Source: an uncultured archaeon (GTDB taxonomy: Archaea > Aenigmatarchaeota > Aenigmatarchaeia > GW2011-AR5 > JAHLMP01). Taken from it: DNA of 35,446 nucleotides. This document shows positions 11,856 to 17,114 of this stretch, piece after piece. The notes beneath the pieces are model-generated. The model was given only the letters and a program-made list of their open reading frames with translations, was not told the origin of the DNA and made no database searches. How positions within the stretch are numbered: the stretch's first letter is position 1; each line of letters opens with the position of its first letter. Position numbers and translations under genes: made by a program. The DNA lies in NCBI GenBank assembly GCA_964492465.1, contig CAZBKL010000002.1, forward strand, positions 1-35,446, written 5' to 3'.

Positions 11856-14800
11856 TTATTTTTTCCCTGTTCCATGGCTGCTGCTCAGCATGATTATATT
11901 TTTATTTACCTGTCCCAGTCTTTCCCTGTGCTTTTTCAACACCAGTACATACTCGCTTTTTGGCATCTCCCTGAGCAGAAAATACCTCTTCTGAATGTTC
12001 TTTACCTGATATTCTATATTTGCTTTCTCCTCCCTTAGCTTTGCGATTTTTTTGTTTCTTCTCTCGATTTCAGTCAGCTTATATACCATGAGAAGCGAGA
12101 TCGCTGCTACGCCCAAGATTGCTGCAATGCCCTCCCAATTCTGCCTTAATGCCAATATAATATTGTCTTTTTCTGATGCCTCTACTGTCTTCTTAATAAG
12201 CAACGCATTTTCTGCCTCGTCCAATGCATTTATGGATTTTTGGAAATAATCTTCCGCATCTTCGTATATTTCCGAAATGAAAGCTTCCAGACCTCTCTTG
12301 AAAAGCTCATCTGCAGGTGTGGTATTTACGCCTCTTTTTTCAGAATCCTGCATCTTTCCCTCAACCACATCTATGAGCTGGTTTGCAGACACAGCAGCAT
12401 CCTTTATGGTTTTCACATAAAGGGCAAGGGAAACTGCATTCAGGTACCTTCCCTGATACATCATAAGTTTCGCATCAGTGAGAGTGTCATTCATCCTTTT
12501 TATCCCGAAGCCGGATGCCTGTGCTTCCTTTATCAGAGATTCGGCCACGATGATTGCGTCTTTTGCGTGCTGCTCATCTGCGGCAGATGTTTGATTCATT
12601 GCCAGATTAGAAGCTGCATAAGCAGGCGCTGTTAGGGAAATGAGGAAAAAAACCAGCATAAGCGAAAGCCATATCTTCCTGCTGCCATTCTGCGGCTTCT
12701 TTTCTGTTTCTGCGAGCTCTTTCCTGAGCTCGTTCATGGTATTCCTGTAAATCTTTTTGCTGATTGCCCTGCGCTCATAATAGTTTCTCTGCGCCTCCTC
12801 TATCATGCTGATTATGCTGGCTCTCTTTCTCTCGTTGCTGAAAACGGAAAATCCAAAAAATCCCTTTCTCACAGGCTCAAGAGAAGCCTGCTCCTTCTTT
12901 ATCATTGCAAGCCTTTTCTCATACATTTTCCCCTCGTCTTCGAATTCAGACTTTCCTATTGTTCTGGACTGGAAAAACCTGCTTTGCAGCGATTTCAGAA
13001 GCGATGTTATTATCATTTCCTCGTTTTTCAGGGATATCAACTTTTTGATTCTCTTTCTGACCGCGACATGCCTATAGATTAATATTATAGACGCAACTGC
13101 GACAGCAAAAATAACAGCAGCAATTTTCCAGTTTTTTTCTATTGCTTCTGCTACAACAATCTGGTTGCCGACTTCTAAGCCGTACGCAAGAAAAGCTCCC
13201 GAAGCCCGTTCTTCAGCTCTTTTATAGTCGCCCCGCGCAAATGCCGAGAGCGCAAGTTCATGCAGCTTCTCGGTTTCGTTGGTTGATATTTTATAGATGG
13301 CTGCCTTATCCAGCTTTTGAGAAACTTCTTTTATCAGGGAGTCGGCAGCAAATGCCTGCTCCTGTATTTCAATTATTTTTTCAGCCAGTTCCTTTGCCGT
13401 GTCATAATCAAAATCTGCCATGCTCGCCCTTGTCTGGTTCGCAAGGTTCTCCACATTTTTCACATCCATGCCCAGGGTTTTCATCTTTTCTATCCCATAT
13501 TTGGCAGCTGAGACGAGGCTTGTTGTCTGGTTCTCATCAACGCTGTGAACAAAGACTGTTATTGTTGAGATGGCTCTTACTGTTGTCTCGTTTTCCTCAT
13601 AATTCAGGCGCTTTGCTTTGCCTGCTGCCTGGAGCGATAAATTATACGGCCCGTATTTCATGTATTGCGGGATTGCGAGCTCTATATGGAAACTTTTATC
13701 ATATCCAAAAGAAATGTTTTTCAAAATGATTGGAGTTATTTTTATCTGGCTGGGCGGGTAGCCGGATATGAGGAGCTCTACGCTGTTCATAATTGTTTTG
13801 TTCTCTGTGTTGCGCACAAGAACATCAAAATAGATTGTTCTGTTCCTGTAGCCATCAACGCGGGGCTTGTTCGATAATGAAAAAGCATATTTTTGCTGGG
13901 GTGCCTGAAATCCAACGTACGCCGGCACAGAGCTGGGTGAGCTTCCGCTTTGGGGCGCGGAACATTCTGCATCGTTTGCATAATTGCAGCCGTTGCCGCA
14001 AGCGCCGTCACCGCTTACGCAATTGACAAGAATATCCTGGCATTTTGTATGGTTGCCGTTCTCGTCCCTGCTCACGTTTATGCACACCGAGGCGACGCCA
14101 CTTGCAGCTGAGCTGCCGACAATCATGGTGATGTTGCTTGTGTTTGATACAAGCGGGCTCATGTCACCGAAATCCTGACTGAGCCCTCCTGATGTGTTGA
14201 GCCAGCCAGGAGGAAAGCTCCAGTTGAGCATGACGTTGTGCGCAGTCTCGTTTCCGATATTTCTTATAGTAACAGACATGTTCACGCCTGCCTGGCTGTG
14301 GCTGACCTGGGAAGGCATGCTGTCTATTATTATGTCAATGAAAGGGCCGCCGGTGTATGTATTCATAATGATAGAAGTGACTGCTGAGAGGGGCGAAGCT
14401 GTCTTTGAAGGATTTGTTGGCTGGGCTGATATGTTGATTGCCATTATGCCTGAGCTGTCATAACTCGCGAACTGGGCTGTTATATTCACATCCCTGCTCA
14501 TCTTTGCCGGAACATCAAACGGGTTGGTTGTATTATATGAATACAACCTCGGCCAGTTGTTCAGCAGGGTTATCGCAAGAGTTCCGTCGCCGGTATTGTT
14601 TATTGAAAGCACCCCCACATAGCTTTCGTTGTTGAAGTATCCCTGGGCTGTGGTGTTGGAAATGTTTGCCGTCCATGTATAATCCCAGGTTGAATTGAAG
14701 CTTGCTGATTGGCTTGTGTTATAATGGCTTTGCGTGTCATTGGCAAATATCCGGTAGTAATATATCCTCTCGGGGTCTGTGGTGTTTATTGTTGTGAAAG

Positions 14801-16091
14801 ACGCATTCCATGTGTCGCTGCTGGTGTTTGACATTGTAAGATTAACCCAGTCCACGTCATACTTGTACTGGAATGTCACATTGCTTATGTTGGAAATGCT
14901 TGTTATGTTTGCTGTCACATTTAATGTGACGCCAGGGTCAATGTCATCTGGTGAATTCGGGGAAAATTGTATCCAGTTCACTCTTGGCGGAGACGATACA
15001 TCCTGAAACAGGCTGAAATTGTTCCCGCCCCATGACTGGGACTCATTATCCTGTGCGAGACAGTTCCATTTATAAATCCCATCAGGAACGTTTGCCAGCG
15101 AGAAATTTGCAGAAACATTCCTATGGTCTGCGCTGCCCTCTGCCCAGGCAGAGCTTATTTCTGCCTCGCTCCTGTGCCTATTTGACATTCTCAGCTCATC
15201 GAAGACTGAATTTGAATGGTACTCCCCGTTTGCATCGCTTCCCAGGAACAGGTATTGCCCAAAGTATTCTGTTGCTAATTCACCGGGAAAATAATTTGAG
15301 CTTGATGATATGTTCGACCCGTCTATGAAAACATTTGTCCCGAGTTCATTGTCCTGCTGGCTGGAGTACCACATGGCTGATATAAAATGCCATTCTCCCA
15401 TGTTCCAGCTTGATATACCTGATAATGATATGGTTTCGTATACGCTGTCGTCACTAAGCCTGAGCATAAACCTGAAATAAAGGATATTGCTGCTGGAATA
15501 CATATCTATGTTCGAAGCTACTGTTCCGGTGTCAAAAAGCCAGTAAACGTTGGCAGATGCCGGGTCAAACCCCACCTTGATCCAGAACTCACTGGAACCG
15601 TTGGCTGAGAGGATGCCTGAAGTATTGTATTTCAATGTGCCCGGACTGCTTACTGCTACACCCTGCAAAGACTTTCCCTGCTCAAAGGATGTGGAATCAT
15701 TTATGCCTGTTCCGCCGTCGCATGCATAGGTGTTGTCAAAATGGCATAGCAGCGTTGTGCTTGAATCTTTCTCAATGCCTGTAAGCCTTTTTGTCCAGTT
15801 CAGGGAGAAATTTCCGCTTATATCATTATAAAACGAGACTGCGGAAATGTTGTTCTCCGAGGATGCATTGCAGTAAAATGCCACAACGCTCTGGTTTGAC
15901 AGGCTCGCATTTTGCGGGCTGGTCAGGTTTACAGCGGGCGCAGCCATTGCAACTGGTAAAAATAAAATAAGGAACAGCAAAAGGTATTTCACTTTCGCTT
16001 CAATGCACAGACTCTTTAAGCCTGTGATTAATATGCTCAGTTGAAGCGAAAGGGATACACCACCCTTCGGGGTGGTGAGATTCACTGGCAT
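11856..16091 (-). CDS. Giant (1411 aa) sequon-rich surface protein: signal peptide, LamG domain, CARDB-like beta domains, Cys-knot motif, then two copies of a helical stalk + TM + cytoplasmic module
   Basis: Likely signal peptide (V)KYLLLFLILFLPVAMA-AP at aa 34-50; a GTG at 15992 is an alternative start. LamG signature NSVFDELRMSNRHRSEAEI near aa 295-312. CARDB-like MSVTIRNIGNETAHNVMLNWSFPPGW. CVSGDGACGNGCNYANDAEC. TM segments at aa ~988-1006, ~1139-1158 and ~1319-1337. Confidence 0.85.
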   Translation of the reverse strand: MPVNLTTPKGGVSLSLQLSILITGLKSLCIEAKVKYLLLFLILFLPVAMAAPAVNLTSPQNASLSNQSVVAFYCNASSENNISAVSFYNDISGNFSLNWTKRLTGIEKDSSTTLLCHFDNTYACDGGTGINDSTSFEQGKSLQGVAVSSPGTLKYNTSGILSANGSSEFWIKVGFDPASANVYWLFDTGTVASNIDMYSSSNILYFRFMLRLSDDSVYETISLSGISSWNMGEWHFISAMWYSSQQDNELGTNVFIDGSNISSSSNYFPGELATEYFGQYLFLGSDANGEYHSNSVFDELRMSNRHRSEAEISSAWAEGSADHRNVSANFSLANVPDGIYKWNCLAQDNESQSWGGNNFSLFQDVSSPPRVNWIQFSPNSPDDIDPGVTLNVTANITSISNISNVTFQYKYDVDWVNLTMSNTSSDTWNASFTTINTTDPERIYYYRIFANDTQSHYNTSQSASFNSTWDYTWTANISNTTAQGYFNNESYVGVLSINNTGDGTLAITLLNNWPRLYSYNTTNPFDVPAKMSRDVNITAQFASYDSSGIMAINISAQPTNPSKTASPLSAVTSIIMNTYTGGPFIDIIIDSMPSQVSHSQAGVNMSVTIRNIGNETAHNVMLNWSFPPGWLNTSGGLSQDFGDMSPLVSNTSNITMIVGSSAASGVASVCINVSRDENGNHTKCQDILVNCVSGDGACGNGCNYANDAECSAPQSGSSPSSVPAYVGFQAPQQKYAFSLSNKPRVDGYRNRTIYFDVLVRNTENKTIMNSVELLISGYPPSQIKITPIILKNISFGYDKSFHIELAIPQYMKYGPYNLSLQAAGKAKRLNYEENETTVRAISTITVFVHSVDENQTTSLVSAAKYGIEKMKTLGMDVKNVENLANQTRASMADFDYDTAKELAEKIIEIQEQAFAADSLIKEVSQKLDKAAIYKISTNETEKLHELALSAFARGDYKRAEERASGAFLAYGLEVGNQIVVAEAIEKNWKIAAVIFAVAVASIILIYRHVAVRKRIKKLISLKNEEMIITSLLKSLQSRFFQSRTIGKSEFEDEGKMYEKRLAMIKKEQASLEPVRKGFFGFSVFSNERKRASIISMIEEAQRNYYERRAISKKIYRNTMNELRKELAETEKKPQNGSRKIWLSLMLVFFLISLTAPAYAASNLAMNQTSAADEQHAKDAIIVAESLIKEAQASGFGIKRMNDTLTDAKLMMYQGRYLNAVSLALYVKTIKDAAVSANQLIDVVEGKMQDSEKRGVNTTPADELFKRGLEAFISEIYEDAEDYFQKSINALDEAENALLIKKTVEASEKDNIILALRQNWEGIAAILGVAAISLLMVYKLTEIERRNKKIAKLREEKANIEYQVKNIQKRYFLLREMPKSEYVLVLKKHRERLGQVNKNIIMLSSSHGTGKK
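16058..16077. other. Perfect 8-bp GC-rich hairpin CACCACCC-TTCG-GGGTGGTG (cUUCGg loop on the + strand)
   Basis: Read directly. It lies inside the first 12 codons of the maximal giant ORF and upstream of the alternative GTG start at 15992. Confidence 0.5.
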
Positions 16092-16205: not shown

Positions 16206-17114
16206 TTATTCGGTTTTGCCGAATACCTCCTGCTCAGGGAAGACCTCCATACCTTTCTTGGAAGTTATTCTCATGGCAACCACTTTCTTAATGTGCTTTG
16301 CGCCGCGCATCTTCAGTACCTCAATTGCGCTCTCACGAATGTTGCCTGTCCTTTTATTGTAGAGAACTATAACGCCGTCAGCCAAGAATTCCTCAACGCC
16401 TGTCGGGCTAAATACGTCCGGAAACTGTGAAGTTTCAGTGATCAGGAACGATGTTACGCCCAAGCTTTCAAAATACCTGAAAAGGTGCTCTATGTAACTC
16501 CTGTAGCTTTCCCTACCCGAGAATGCTGATGCCACAGCAGTCAGTGAGTCAACAATGATTATATCAGGTGTGAAATTTTTAGGCAACAATATTGGGTTTA
16601 CGTCAATAAGAAGCTCGCCCTGAGACTTTGCCATCATCGCCTCAAGGGTCCTGCCTATGTCGAAAATGCTGAATCTCTTTATAACCAGCCTGCTGCTCAT
16701 ATTGTCTGTTTTCCACCCAAAATCTCTCATATGCTCCCTGAGCCGCTCCTCAGATTCCTCAAAGGTCATGTAAAGGCAGTTCTTACCCTTTTTTACGGCA
16801 TTGAGTATCATTTGCAGGCACATTATGGTCTTACCAGAGCCTGCGCCGCCAGAAATAAGTACAGAAGCTCCTTTTGGAATACCCTTTTCAAAAAGCTTGT
16901 CAAACCCTTCTATGCCCGTGAGAAGGTATTCACGCGGTTTTTCAGTGGCAGAAGCGCTGCTTTTTATTTTTTTCACGTTGTGCGACGATGCCAAAGCCTT
17001 TTCCTTGATATTGCTTTTTTCCCGCCTTTTGGTTCCCTGGCTCTTTTTTTGGGTTTTCTTTGGGTTATTGACAGGGTGCTTCTTCAGCGCCTTTGGCATA
17101 TATGTCATTATCAA
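16206..17114 (-). CDS. KaiC/RadA-like single-domain RecA-superfamily ATPase with a basic N-terminal extension
   Basis: 302 aa. TGIEGFDKLFEKGIPKGASVLISGGAGSGKTIMCLQ (Walker A) and IIIVDSLT (Walker B). The first ~55 aa are K/S-rich. The track start is a TTG; the first ATG is at 17108. Confidence 0.85.
   Translation of the reverse strand: MIMTYMPKALKKHPVNNPKKTQKKSQGTKRREKSNIKEKALASSHNVKKIKSSASATEKPREYLLTGIEGFDKLFEKGIPKGASVLISGGAGSGKTIMCLQMILNAVKKGKNCLYMTFEESEERLREHMRDFGWKTDNMSSRLVIKRFSIFDIGRTLEAMMAKSQGELLIDVNPILLPKNFTPDIIIVDSLTAVASAFSGRESYRSYIEHLFRYFESLGVTSFLITETSQFPDVFSPTGVEEFLADGVIVLYNKRTGNIRESAIEVLKMRGAKHIKKVVAMRITSKKGMEVFPEQEVFGKTE

What the first reader, a model, noticed from the sequence alone, without database searches (positions are those of the whole stretch)
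11856..16091. Giant LamG surface protein that looks like an in-frame fusion or duplication: a second signal-peptide-like segment and a repeated stalk-TM-cytoplasmic module
After the large sequon-rich ectodomain, the protein has a helical stalk, TM1 (aa ~988-1006) and a cytoplasmic module RKRIKKLISLKNEEMIITSLLKSLQSRFFQSRTIGKSEFEDEGKMYEKRLAMIKKE. The ectodomain contains a LamG signature FDELRMSNRHRSEAEI, CARDB-like repeats and CVSGDGACGNGCNYANDAEC. Next comes RKIWLSLMLVFFLISLTAPAYA-AS (aa ~1138-1161), which reads like a complete signal peptide with an AxA cleavage site. After that there is a second helical ectodomain, TM3 (aa ~1319-1337) and a second cytoplasmic module RRNKKIAKLREEKANIEYQVKNIQKRYFLLREMPKSEYVLVLKKHRERLGQVNKN, which aligns with the first (K.I.KL..E...Q.R(F/Y)F..R...KSE(F/Y)....RL). 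So the C-terminal ~270 aa duplicate the preceding anchor unit, giving an unusual out-in-out-in topology. Alternatively the product could be proteolytically split into two anchored proteins. Such a protein is a candidate adhesin or host-contact factor.
Basis: partly seen in the sequence, partly recalled or inferred. Interest (0 to 1): 0.6.

Follow-up and report, generated by a model that had tools for sequence, protein, structure and literature searches.

The report
Surface protein fused to its membrane partner
This 1411-residue archaeal surface glycoprotein is a real, widely conserved fusion of a giant cell-surface protein with the small, related membrane protein that other archaea encode as the next gene, and it keeps that partner's signal peptide in the middle of the chain, so one gene may yield two anchored proteins.

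Summary
ORF 11856..16091 (-) encodes 1411 aa. Residues 850-1067 (helical stalk, TM1, cytoplasmic motif) are repeated at 1171-1398: 24% identity, 81.6 bits against 18 +/- 3.4 for shuffles. A signal-peptide-like segment (aa 1138-1159, ...APAYA|AS) sits between the two copies.

It is not an assembly artefact. The same one-frame architecture occurs in at least 46 protein clusters from independent assemblies and in about 22 of 201 sampled genomes of the phylum.

In about 16 other genomes the two halves are separate adjacent genes. The small gene has its own N-terminal signal peptide, and in four of five junctions read its start overlaps the giant gene's stop.

A tree separates all 'a' modules (giant) from all 'b' modules (small partner). 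Stand-alone and fused b modules are interleaved. So the duplication is old, and fusion or fission happened several times.

Charge bias and N-glycosylation sequon density support an out-in-out-in topology. The internal segment keeps a signal-peptidase-type end (small residues at -1/-3 in 22/47, against 4/92 for TM1 and TM3). Cleavage into two proteins is plausible but untested.

A KaiC-like ATPase gene lies within 5 kb in 20 of 35 genomes (2.6 expected).

The module has no Pfam or NCBIfam family, no PDB relative and no source name.

The parts
11856..16091 (-). Whole ORF, 1411 aa plus stop: fused giant surface protein plus partner module
   Evidence: One-frame orthologues at 36-50% identity in other assemblies.
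15942..15995 (-). N-terminal signal peptide, aa 33-50 (KVKYLLLFLILFLPVAMA|AP). The 32 residues before it have no counterpart in orthologues, so the true start may lie downstream of the ATG at 16091.
   Evidence: KD peak 2.42. Orthologue N-termini. DNA read.
13545..15941 (-). Ectodomain, aa 51-849: chain of beta-sandwich domains, 46 N-x-S/T sequons
   Evidence: AlphaFold model pLDDT 81, all-beta. Foldseek finds only generic Ig-like or MG-domain chains. Sequons counted.
15153..15608 (-). LamG (Laminin_G_3) domain, aa 162-313
   Evidence: PF13385, E 8.7e-9, 36.1 bits against cut-off 27.6.
13962..14021 (-). Conserved four-Cys motif CxSxDGxCGxGCxYxNDxDC, aa 691-710, in a low-confidence linker
   Evidence: C, D and G positions invariant in 12 orthologues. 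pLDDT <50 just after it.
13131..13544 (-). Helical stalk 'a', aa 850-987 (extracellular)
   Evidence: Module profile positions 1-138. Five helices in the AlphaFold model. Net acidic.
13074..13130 (-). TM1, aa 988-1006 (out to in), followed by RHVAVRKR
   Evidence: KD 2.31. The first polar or charged residue after it is R or K in 40/45 relatives.
12891..13073 (-). Cytoplasmic helical-hairpin repeat 1, aa 1007-1067
   Evidence: The helix continues from TM1, then a turn and a second helix.
12699..12830 (-).
   Evidence: Partial match to module profile positions 174-217, E 2.7e-4. Present in all fused and unfused relatives examined.
12615..12680 (-). Internal signal-peptide-like segment / TM2, aa 1138-1159 (RK-IWLSLMLVFFLISL-TAPAYA|AS), in to out
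   Evidence: KD 1.96. Basic n-region, small residues at -3/-1, polar +1 as in relatives. Positionally equivalent to the N-terminal signal peptide of stand-alone b proteins. pLDDT <50.
12132..12614 (-). Helical stalk 'b', aa 1160-1320 (extracellular), with the conserved N-D-T sequon at N1201
12075..12131 (-). TM3, aa 1321-1339 (out to in)
   Evidence: KD 2.07. Followed by K or R in 38/47 relatives.
11859..12074 (-). Cytoplasmic helical-hairpin repeat 3 and basic tail, aa 1340-1411
   Evidence: Net charge +14 per 100 aa across 45 relatives.
16206..17114 (-). KaiC-like ATPase gene directly upstream on the same strand: a conserved neighbour, not part of the ORF
   Evidence: PF06745, E 1.1e-51. A KaiC-like gene lies within 5 kb of the locus in 20/35 genomes against 2.6 expected.

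Best explanation
**What it is.** The ORF is one genuine gene that joins two proteins which many related archaea encode as adjacent, usually overlapping genes.
- Part 1 is a giant, heavily N-glycosylated surface protein: signal peptide, LamG domain, a chain of beta-sandwich domains, helical stalk 'a', TM1 and two cytoplasmic helical-hairpin repeats.
- Part 2 is a small type-I membrane protein 'b': signal peptide, paralogous stalk, TM and one hairpin repeat.

**Shown.** The a/b duplication is older than the joining. Fused and split states both occur many times. The former signal peptide of b is retained inside the chain.

**Inferred, well supported.** This segment inserts N-in/C-out and sends the chain out again. 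The topology is then ectodomain and stalk a outside, a 130-aa loop inside, stalk b outside and the tail inside.

**Inferred.**
- Stalks a and b with TM1 and TM3 form a pseudo-heterodimeric anchor. The fusion fixes its 1:1 stoichiometry, and three hairpin repeats are presented together in the cytoplasm.
- The internal segment keeps a signal-peptidase-I-type end (APAYA|AS). The genome encodes an archaeal signal peptidase I. So the chain is probably cut there into a giant hairpin-anchored protein and a separate roughly 250-residue b protein. I put this step at roughly 45%.
- The conserved KaiC-like ATPase neighbour suggests the cytoplasmic hairpins couple the surface protein to a KaiC-type switch, that is, contact or ligand sensing rather than passive adhesion. 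I put this step at roughly 40%.
For: - **Repeat.** Significance established.
- **Fused frame conserved.** Seen in G026, G034, G039, G040, P0002, L042 and L043. Also in at least 46 of the 150 best cluster representatives and in about 22 of 201 genomes across at least 7 families.
- **Split state read from DNA.** L011 has an ATGA overlap. G042, G043 and G044 have 7-16-nt overlaps. G029 is convergent. One search lists about 12 more adjacent split pairs by coordinates.
- **Tree.** All 70 a modules form one clade (SH-aLRT 97). Stand-alone b modules are interleaved with fused b modules, with at least 4 changes forced by well-supported branches. In the six-copy alignment, the three b copies share a 12-aa insertion that the three a copies lack.
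- **Other fusions.** A reverse-order fusion (P0048) and a four-module chain (P0020) each keep signal-peptide-like segments between units.
- **Topology.** Sequons per 100 aa are 5.17 / 0.80 / 0.19 / 1.22 / 0.26 for ectodomain, stalk a, loop, stalk b and tail. Net charge is -6.0 / -5.6 / +7.1 / -9.2 / +14.1 over 45 fused proteins.
- **End of the internal segment.** Small residues at -1 and -3 in 22/47, against 4/92 for TM1 and TM3 (Fisher 4e-9), and 9/34 for the same proteins' N-terminal signal peptides. The +1 residue is Q/N/D/E in 43/47.
- **Enzyme present.** Archaeal signal peptidase I in the genome: TIGR02228, 90 bits against cut-off 51.9.
- **Model.** AlphaFold gives confident helical stalks, TM helices and hairpins, but pLDDT <50 for aa 1133-1173.
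- **KaiC neighbour.**; statistics.
Against: - No experimental or read-level data were available, and no dedicated topology or signal-peptide predictor could be run.
- The hydrophobic core of the internal segment is no shorter than those of TM1 and TM3 (medians 14, 12, 15). It could equally stay as an ordinary uncleaved TM helix.
- About 8-10 of 47 fused relatives lack a clear small-x-small end, so cleavage cannot be essential everywhere.
- Any hydrophobic N-in/C-out segment would be retained for topological reasons alone.
- pTM of the C-terminal model is only 0.43, and no contact map was available. Pairing of a with b is therefore not shown.
- 12 of 35 genomes show no KaiC-like gene within 10 kb, though several of those contigs are short.
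- The direction of change (fusion or fission) is not polarised, because the tree is unrooted.
Confidence: 0.8

Rival explanations
1. Uncleaved polytopic protein. The middle segment is simply a second TM helix. The product stays one polypeptide with three membrane passes after removal of the N-terminal signal peptide, and the signal-peptide-like end is a relic of the fusion.
For: Hydrophobic core and uncharged stretch are as long as those of TM1 and TM3. Some fused relatives have no small-x-small end. G029's giant protein has a TM2 followed by a short outside tail with no fusion.
Against: The small -3/-1 and acidic or polar +1 pattern is kept across fused proteins that differ by more than one substitution per site. 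It matches or exceeds the frequency in the same proteins' real N-terminal signal peptides. The organism has signal peptidase I.
Confidence: 0.45
2. Assembly or frameshift artefact that joins two adjacent genes in this metagenome-assembled genome.
For: The genome is a 112-contig draft. In split relatives the two genes overlap, so a single-base error could fuse them. Reads could not be checked.
Against: The same in-frame junction, with a similar loop length and no stop, is present in dozens of independent assemblies from JGI, ENA, NCBI and Logan at 30-50% identity. The nearest relative, P0002, is fused in the same way.
Confidence: 0.02
3. The fused form is ancestral: an internal tandem duplication inside one gene, with the split two-gene forms being later fissions.
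For: The tree is unrooted. Fused forms are frequent (about 22 against 16 genomes) and form large clades.
Against: Unfused giants are the most numerous and diverse class among the 150 best clusters. A reverse-order fusion exists. A fission would have to create a start codon and a working signal peptide each time, whereas a fusion only needs a one-base shift at an overlapping stop/start. Either direction leaves the same present-day reading of this gene.
Confidence: 0.2
4. It is the S-layer (cell-wall lattice) protein of this archaeon, and the b module is its membrane stalk, analogous to SlaA/SlaB. It is not an adhesin or sensor.
For: It is a large, heavily sequon-rich, TM-anchored surface protein. 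It is single-copy in the genome. A small stalk-type partner is encoded next to it in split forms.
Against: Distribution is patchy: 55 of 201 genomes in the phylum sample, and none of 8 other genomes of its own family. Linkage to KaiC-like ATPases and response regulators is tight. There are elaborate conserved cytoplasmic repeats. No sequence match to any known S-layer family was found.
Confidence: 0.15

Closest known systems
Rosetta-stone gene fusions (interacting partners encoded as one chain in some genomes; Marcotte et al. 1999, from my own knowledge)
   Same: Two proteins that are separate, adjacent and translationally coupled in some genomes form a single ORF in others. Each part is orthologous to the separate gene.
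   Different: Both partners are membrane proteins with outside domains. The fusion therefore has to carry an internal export signal and creates an out-in-out-in topology. The partners are also paralogues of each other.
Viral envelope polyproteins cut by host signal peptidase at internal signal sequences (flavivirus structural region, bunyavirus glycoprotein precursor; from my own knowledge)
   Same: TM anchor, cytoplasmic loop, internal signal sequence with a small-x-small end, then the next ectodomain. The internal signal would remain as the last TM of the upstream product.
   Different: This is a cellular archaeal gene with no sequence or fold relation. Cleavage is not shown here. This is a 'works like' comparison, not membership.
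KaiC-like ATPase neighbourhoods proposed as archaeal signal-transduction hubs (Makarova, Galperin and Koonin 2017, mBio 8:e01959-17; listed in the references of PMC6393860; paper not held)
   Same: A KaiC-like ATPase (PF06745), DUF7504 paralogues and a response regulator flank the gene. The linkage is statistically strong.
   Different: I could not check whether that work lists this stalk-TM-hairpin module or the giant protein. No physical link is shown.
Sulfolobales S-layer pair SlaA/SlaB (large outer protein plus small coiled-coil, TM-anchored stalk protein encoded next to it; from my own knowledge)
   Same: A large glycosylated surface protein and a small helical TM-anchored partner from adjacent genes.
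   Different: No sequence similarity was detected. Here both partners carry the same stalk-TM-hairpin module and conserved cytoplasmic repeats. Distribution is patchy.
LamG / concanavalin-like lectin-domain surface proteins of small-genome (DPANN-type) archaea, proposed as host-contact factors
   Same: Laminin_G_3 domain above threshold, Ig-like domain chain, small-genome uncultured archaeon.
   Different: The C-terminal anchor architecture described here is not part of any named family. The ligand is unknown.

Membership tests
Laminin_G_3 (PF13385) domain protein | Match to the Pfam model above the gathering score | tested here: met
   36.1 bits against 27.6, aa 162-313. A beta-sandwich is modelled in that region.
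CARDB / NPCBM_assoc (NEW3) repeat protein | Match to the Pfam model above the gathering score | tested here: not met
   NPCBM_assoc 20.2 bits against 24.4, one short stretch at aa 603-634. No CARDB hit. The fold is beta-sandwich, so a distant relation is possible.
Gene fusion of separately encoded partners (Rosetta-stone type) | Both parts exist as separate genes in other genomes | tested here: met
   L011, G029, G042, G043 and G044 read at DNA level. About 12 more seen by coordinates.
Gene fusion of separately encoded partners (Rosetta-stone type) | Each part groups with its separate counterpart rather than with the other part | tested here: met
   The a clade (70 rows, SH-aLRT 97) excludes all b modules. 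Stand-alone b modules nest among fused b modules (quick IQ-TREE search).
Sec-type signal peptide cut by signal peptidase I (here internal) | Basic n-region, hydrophobic h-region, c-region with small residues at -3 and -1 | tested here: met
   SRK / IWLSLMLVFFLISL / TAPAYA|AS. The pattern is shared by 22/47 fused relatives against 4/92 control TM ends.
Sec-type signal peptide cut by signal peptidase I (here internal) | The enzyme is encoded by the organism | tested here: met
   TIGR02228, 90.2 bits against cut-off 51.85, at G000:C33:7607-7996.
Sec-type signal peptide cut by signal peptidase I (here internal) | Cleavage actually occurs | not testable with these tools
   Needs N-terminal proteomics or tagged expression.
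Sec-type signal peptide cut by signal peptidase I (here internal) | h-region shorter than a membrane-spanning helix | tested here: inconclusive
   By my crude measure, core length does not differ from TM1, TM3 or the N-terminal signal peptides (medians 14, 12, 15, 12; p >0.49).
KaiC-associated membrane signalling module | Conserved genomic linkage to a KaiC-like ATPase (PF06745) | tested here: met
   20/35 genomes within 5 kb against 2.6 expected, p about 3e-14. Directly adjacent in the window.
KaiC-associated membrane signalling module | Physical or functional coupling to the ATPase | not testable with these tools
   No multimer prediction or experiment was available.
Archaeal S-layer protein | Membership of a known S-layer family, or near-universal presence in the lineage | tested here: not met
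   No Pfam or NCBIfam S-layer match. The module is present in only 27% of sampled genomes, and in none of 8 other genomes of the same family.
Any family with a solved structure (stalk-TM-hairpin module) | Sequence-profile or fold match to the PDB | tested here: not met
   Best profile E 0.015, to a Rad50 coiled coil. Best Foldseek E 0.49.

The most novel reading that the evidence does not exclude
One archaeal gene makes two proteins. Signal peptidase I cuts an internal, conserved signal peptide, as in viral envelope polyproteins. This releases a giant glycosylated LamG sensor or adhesin and its small paralogous partner in fixed 1:1 ratio. The two assemble through their stalks and TM helices into a heterodimeric anchor, and its three cytoplasmic hairpins dock a KaiC-like ATPase. 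Surface contact, for example with a host cell, is thereby relayed to a KaiC-type switch. This would be an undescribed transmembrane signalling system of small-genome archaea.
Probability: 0.25. Interest if true: 0.8.

Novelty: new variant of a known kind. Interest (0 to 1): 0.58.

Why it matters
The stalk-TM-hairpin module defines a large protein family that none of the libraries or papers searched here names. A profile search finds 2263 clusters at 50% identity, and the module occurs in about a quarter of sampled genomes of this small-genome archaeal phylum.

- **Partner prediction.** The fused and split forms give a ready-made prediction that the giant protein and the small b protein work together at 1:1.
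- **Processing.** The retained internal signal peptide is a testable case of polyprotein-like processing by signal peptidase in a cellular organism. I know of no described archaeal example, and one literature search found none.
- **Signalling.** The strong linkage to KaiC-like ATPases offers a concrete membrane input for those still poorly understood archaeal switches. It may also be a handle on how episymbiotic archaea sense or hold their hosts.

Tried and rejected
- **Word-indexed homologue search with module b alone:** 1085 candidates, none significant. The family is too divergent for that tool; the profile search was needed.
- **The search for related loci with the 21-row alignment** failed because no stretch was conserved enough. 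The single-protein scan gave two more fused orthologues.
- **Foldseek of the helical C-terminal model against the PDB** gave only generic helical bundles, best E 0.49. The PDB profile search gave nothing meaningful.
- **Foldseek of the ectodomain** gave only generic chains of Ig-like or MG domains with TM-scores of 0.19 or less. No specific adhesin or S-layer relative emerged.
- **The idea that the internal segment has a shorter hydrophobic core than true TM helices** was tested and not supported, so I dropped that argument.
- **Pfam and NCBIfam on stand-alone b proteins and C-terminal regions** gave only sub-threshold noise: TPR, DUFs, and SAXB at 22 against 95 bits.
- **Source names for ten cluster representatives:** none beyond 'hypothetical protein'.
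- **Literature searches** found no description of the architecture, nor of internal signal-peptide cleavage in archaea. The Makarova 2017 paper is not held.
- **Internal translation start for b inside the fused gene** was considered and rejected. No in-frame ATG precedes the segment in P0001, P0002 or G026. The only nearby Met in P0001 lies inside the hydrophobic core.

Full report
**1. Observation**

The minus-strand ORF 11856..16091 is open and encodes 1411 aa. Hydropathy peaks lie at aa 36-54, 988-1006, 1140-1158 and 1321-1339. Laminin_G_3 matches aa 162-313 above Pfam's threshold. NPCBM_assoc is below threshold.

Residues 850-1066 align with 1170-1397 at 24% identity over 228 columns. The score is 81.6 bits, or 63.2 bits (E 3e-16) with composition correction. 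200 shuffles of the second half gave 18.0 +/- 3.4 bits, maximum 33.9. The repeated stalk-TM-cytoplasmic unit is therefore real.

A profile of the unit also finds a third, partial copy of the cytoplasmic motif in the loop between TM1 and the middle segment: window 12699-12830, aa 1088-1131, E 2.7e-4.

**2. Not an artefact, and a large family**

The genome holding the window is a 0.79-Mb, 112-contig draft, 87% complete. Its relatives have 0.4-1.9 Mb genomes, and the two named relatives are 'uncultured archaeon' MAGs. I call it DPANN-like; that is an inference.

One-frame orthologues with the same order of parts were read in:
- G026, 1359 aa
- P0002, 1367 aa, from a JGI metagenome
- G034, G039 and G040
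- two further MAGs

A profile of six module copies (A1) was searched against 1.84 billion cluster representatives. It found 2263 proteins at E <= 1e-3 and 426 at E <= 1e-30. Of the 150 best, at least 46 have the pattern module a, short repeat, module b in one chain, mostly 1340-1450 aa. No source gives any of ten representatives a name other than 'hypothetical protein'.

In a 201-genome sample of the phylum, 55 genomes in 39 of 119 genera carry the module. In the window's own family only this genome does, 0 of 8 others.

**3. The halves are separate genes elsewhere**

- **L011.** The giant protein P0003 (1649 aa) ends 20 residues after the second cytoplasmic repeat. The next gene starts at an ATG overlapping the stop (AAAAAATGAAAAAG). 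It encodes a 271-aa protein: signal peptide MKKVILILLVLLCFNFVAA|EQ, helical stalk, TM and cytoplasmic motif.
- **G042, G043 and G044** belong to the same genus as the fused G026 and G039. A 292-294-aa gene (MVKKIIFILFLLTMLASLGHA|AS...) overlaps the end of the giant gene by 7-16 nt.
- **G029.** The small gene follows a KaiC-like ATPase gene and converges on the giant gene. That giant ends with TM1, two repeats, a second TM and a short Cys/Asp-rich outside tail.

By coordinates, one search shows about 22 genomes with both modules in one open frame. About 12 have a giant followed on the same strand by a 260-400-aa ORF. The states are largely family-specific, but both occur in families f3 and f16.

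**4. Duplication first, joining later**

In alignment A1 the three b copies share a 12-residue insertion that the three a copies lack.

I built a maximum-likelihood tree of 120 modules (quick IQ-TREE search; the careful search did not finish). All 70 a modules fall in one clade (SH-aLRT 97), apart from all b modules. Stand-alone b modules are interleaved with fused ones, and well-supported branches force at least four changes of state. The a and b subtrees show similar groupings, as expected for partners inherited together.

Two proteins show that joining has happened in other ways:
- P0048 has the order signal peptide, b, TM, motif, internal signal-like segment (...FLISFVSA|EY), giant, a.
- P0020 strings four modules together with seven hydrophobic segments.

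At the L011 junction, one extra A in the A-run would put the two frames in register and keep the Met. This is my reading of the sequence.

**5. The middle segment and topology**

In every fused representative the stretch between the second repeat and module b has three parts: a basic cluster, a hydrophobic core, then a short stretch rich in P, S, G and A that ends before Q, N, D or E.

| Hydrophobic segment | Small residues at both -1 and -3 | First polar or charged residue after it (+1) |
|---|---|---|
| Middle segment (TM2) | 22/47 | Q/N/D/E in 43/47 |
| TM1 and TM3 combined | 4/92 (Fisher 4e-9) | R or K in 78/92 |
| N-terminal signal peptides of the same proteins | 9/34 | N/D/E/Q in 32/34 |

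These counts are taken at the C-terminal boundary of each hydrophobic stretch.

The core is not shorter than that of TM1 or TM3, so I make no argument from length.

Regional statistics over 45 fused proteins:

| Region | Sequons per 100 aa | Net charge per 100 aa |
|---|---|---|
| Ectodomain | 5.17 | -6.0 |
| Stalk a | 0.80 | -5.6 |
| Loop | 0.19 | +7.1 |
| Stalk b | 1.22 | -9.2 |
| Tail | 0.26 | +14.1 |

An N-D-T sequon in stalk b (N1201 here) has an invariant Asn and a nearly invariant Thr in 21 fused relatives. Together with the homology of stalk b to secreted stand-alone proteins, this supports out-in-out-in. The genome encodes an archaeal signal peptidase I. Whether it cuts at APAYA|AS cannot be decided here.

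**6. Structure**

- **C-terminal region (aa 844-1411, 21-row alignment).** AlphaFold gives pLDDT 78 and pTM 0.43. Each stalk is five helices. TM1 runs on as one long helix into the cytoplasm. Each cytoplasmic repeat is a helix-turn-helix hairpin. Residues 1133-1173 are below pLDDT 50, with only an 11-residue helix. There is no PDB relative by fold (best E 0.49) or by profile.
- **Ectodomain (aa 34-853).** The model has pLDDT 81. It is a chain of beta-sandwich domains around the LamG domain, with a low-confidence Cys-rich linker. Foldseek returns only generic multi-Ig or MG-domain proteins.

**7. Context**

A KaiC-like ATPase gene (PF06745, E 1e-51) lies 115 nt upstream on the same strand. KaiC-like genes, DUF7504 paralogues or a response regulator flank the gene in L010, L011, L006, L042 and L043.

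I compared module coordinates with PF06745 hits in 35 genomes. A KaiC-like gene lies within 5 kb in 20 genomes, and within 10 kb in 23. Chance predicts 2.6 (p about 3e-14). This agrees with an earlier agent's note on the neighbouring KaiC cluster, which I used only as a lead.

**8. Reading**

- **Shown:** a conserved fusion of two anciently paralogous, normally adjacent genes, with the partner's signal peptide retained internally.
- **Well supported:** out-in-out-in topology.
- **Inferred:**
  - The two stalk-TM units pair, following fusion logic and the overlapping genes.
  - The three hairpins act together, since the total is three per pair whether fused or split.
  - The chain may be cut by signal peptidase (about 45%).
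  - The cytoplasmic side talks to the KaiC-like ATPase (about 40%).
- **Ectodomain:** its content (LamG lectin fold, Ig-like chain, dense glycosylation) fits an adhesin or contact sensor. A lattice (S-layer) role is less likely, given the patchy distribution.

**9. Comparison and novelty**

The thing works like a Rosetta-stone fusion. If it is cut, it also works like a viral envelope polyprotein processed by signal peptidase. It belongs to no named family beyond its LamG domain. I class it as a new variant of a known kind. The uncharacterised module family and its KaiC linkage are the more interesting part.

**10. Limits**

- No dedicated topology predictor.
- No multimer modelling.
- The tree comes from a quick search.
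- The fused and split counts are my tally from coordinates.

Noticed in passing
L011:14930-14960: The giant gene's stop and the partner gene's start overlap inside an A-rich run (AAAAAATGAAAAAG). One extra A would fuse the two frames and keep the Met. This is a simple route to the fused form and a possible slippage site.
   Followed up: partly
P0048 (2156 aa) and P0020 (1683 aa): P0048 is a reverse-order fusion: partner module first, then an internal signal-like segment, then the giant protein. P0020 is a chain of four modules with seven hydrophobic segments. Joining of these units has happened in several independent ways.
   Followed up: partly
P0043, P0050, P0060, P0084, P0093, P0114, P0115, P0119, P0124: Some very large proteins (1500-3900 aa) carry 11-32 tandem matches to the first roughly 115 positions of the module. 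The helical stalk unit therefore also exists as a long repeat array.
   Followed up: no
window 13962-14021 (aa 691-710): The Cys motif CxSxDGxCGxGCxYxNDxDC is invariant at its C, D and G positions in 12 orthologues. It is followed by a Gly/Ser-rich low-confidence linker. G029's giant protein ends in a similar Cys/Asp-rich tail. It may be a small disulfide or metal-binding knot.
   Followed up: no
window 15996-16091 (aa 1-32): The first 32 residues have no counterpart in orthologues, which start a few residues before the signal-peptide core.
   Followed up: partly
window 12646-12652: A run of seven T on the coding strand lies inside the codons of the internal signal-like segment (LVFFL). It is a homopolymer where a one-base slip would end the frame soon after. 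There is no evidence that this is used.
   Followed up: no
G000 against its family: None of 8 other genomes of the window's own family has the module, and the closest orthologues sit in other families. The patchy distribution suggests loss or horizontal transfer.
   Followed up: no
L011:15762-16187: A 141-aa two-TM protein (weak DUF2207_C match, E 4.7e-4) lies between the partner gene and the KaiC-like ATPase in the split locus. It may be a further member of the system there.
   Followed up: no
window 12489-12491 (N1201) and relatives: An N-D-T sequon in stalk b has an invariant Asn and a nearly invariant Thr across 21 fused relatives (ANDTLxEA). This suggests a conserved glycosylation site or structural motif on the outside.
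   Followed up: partly
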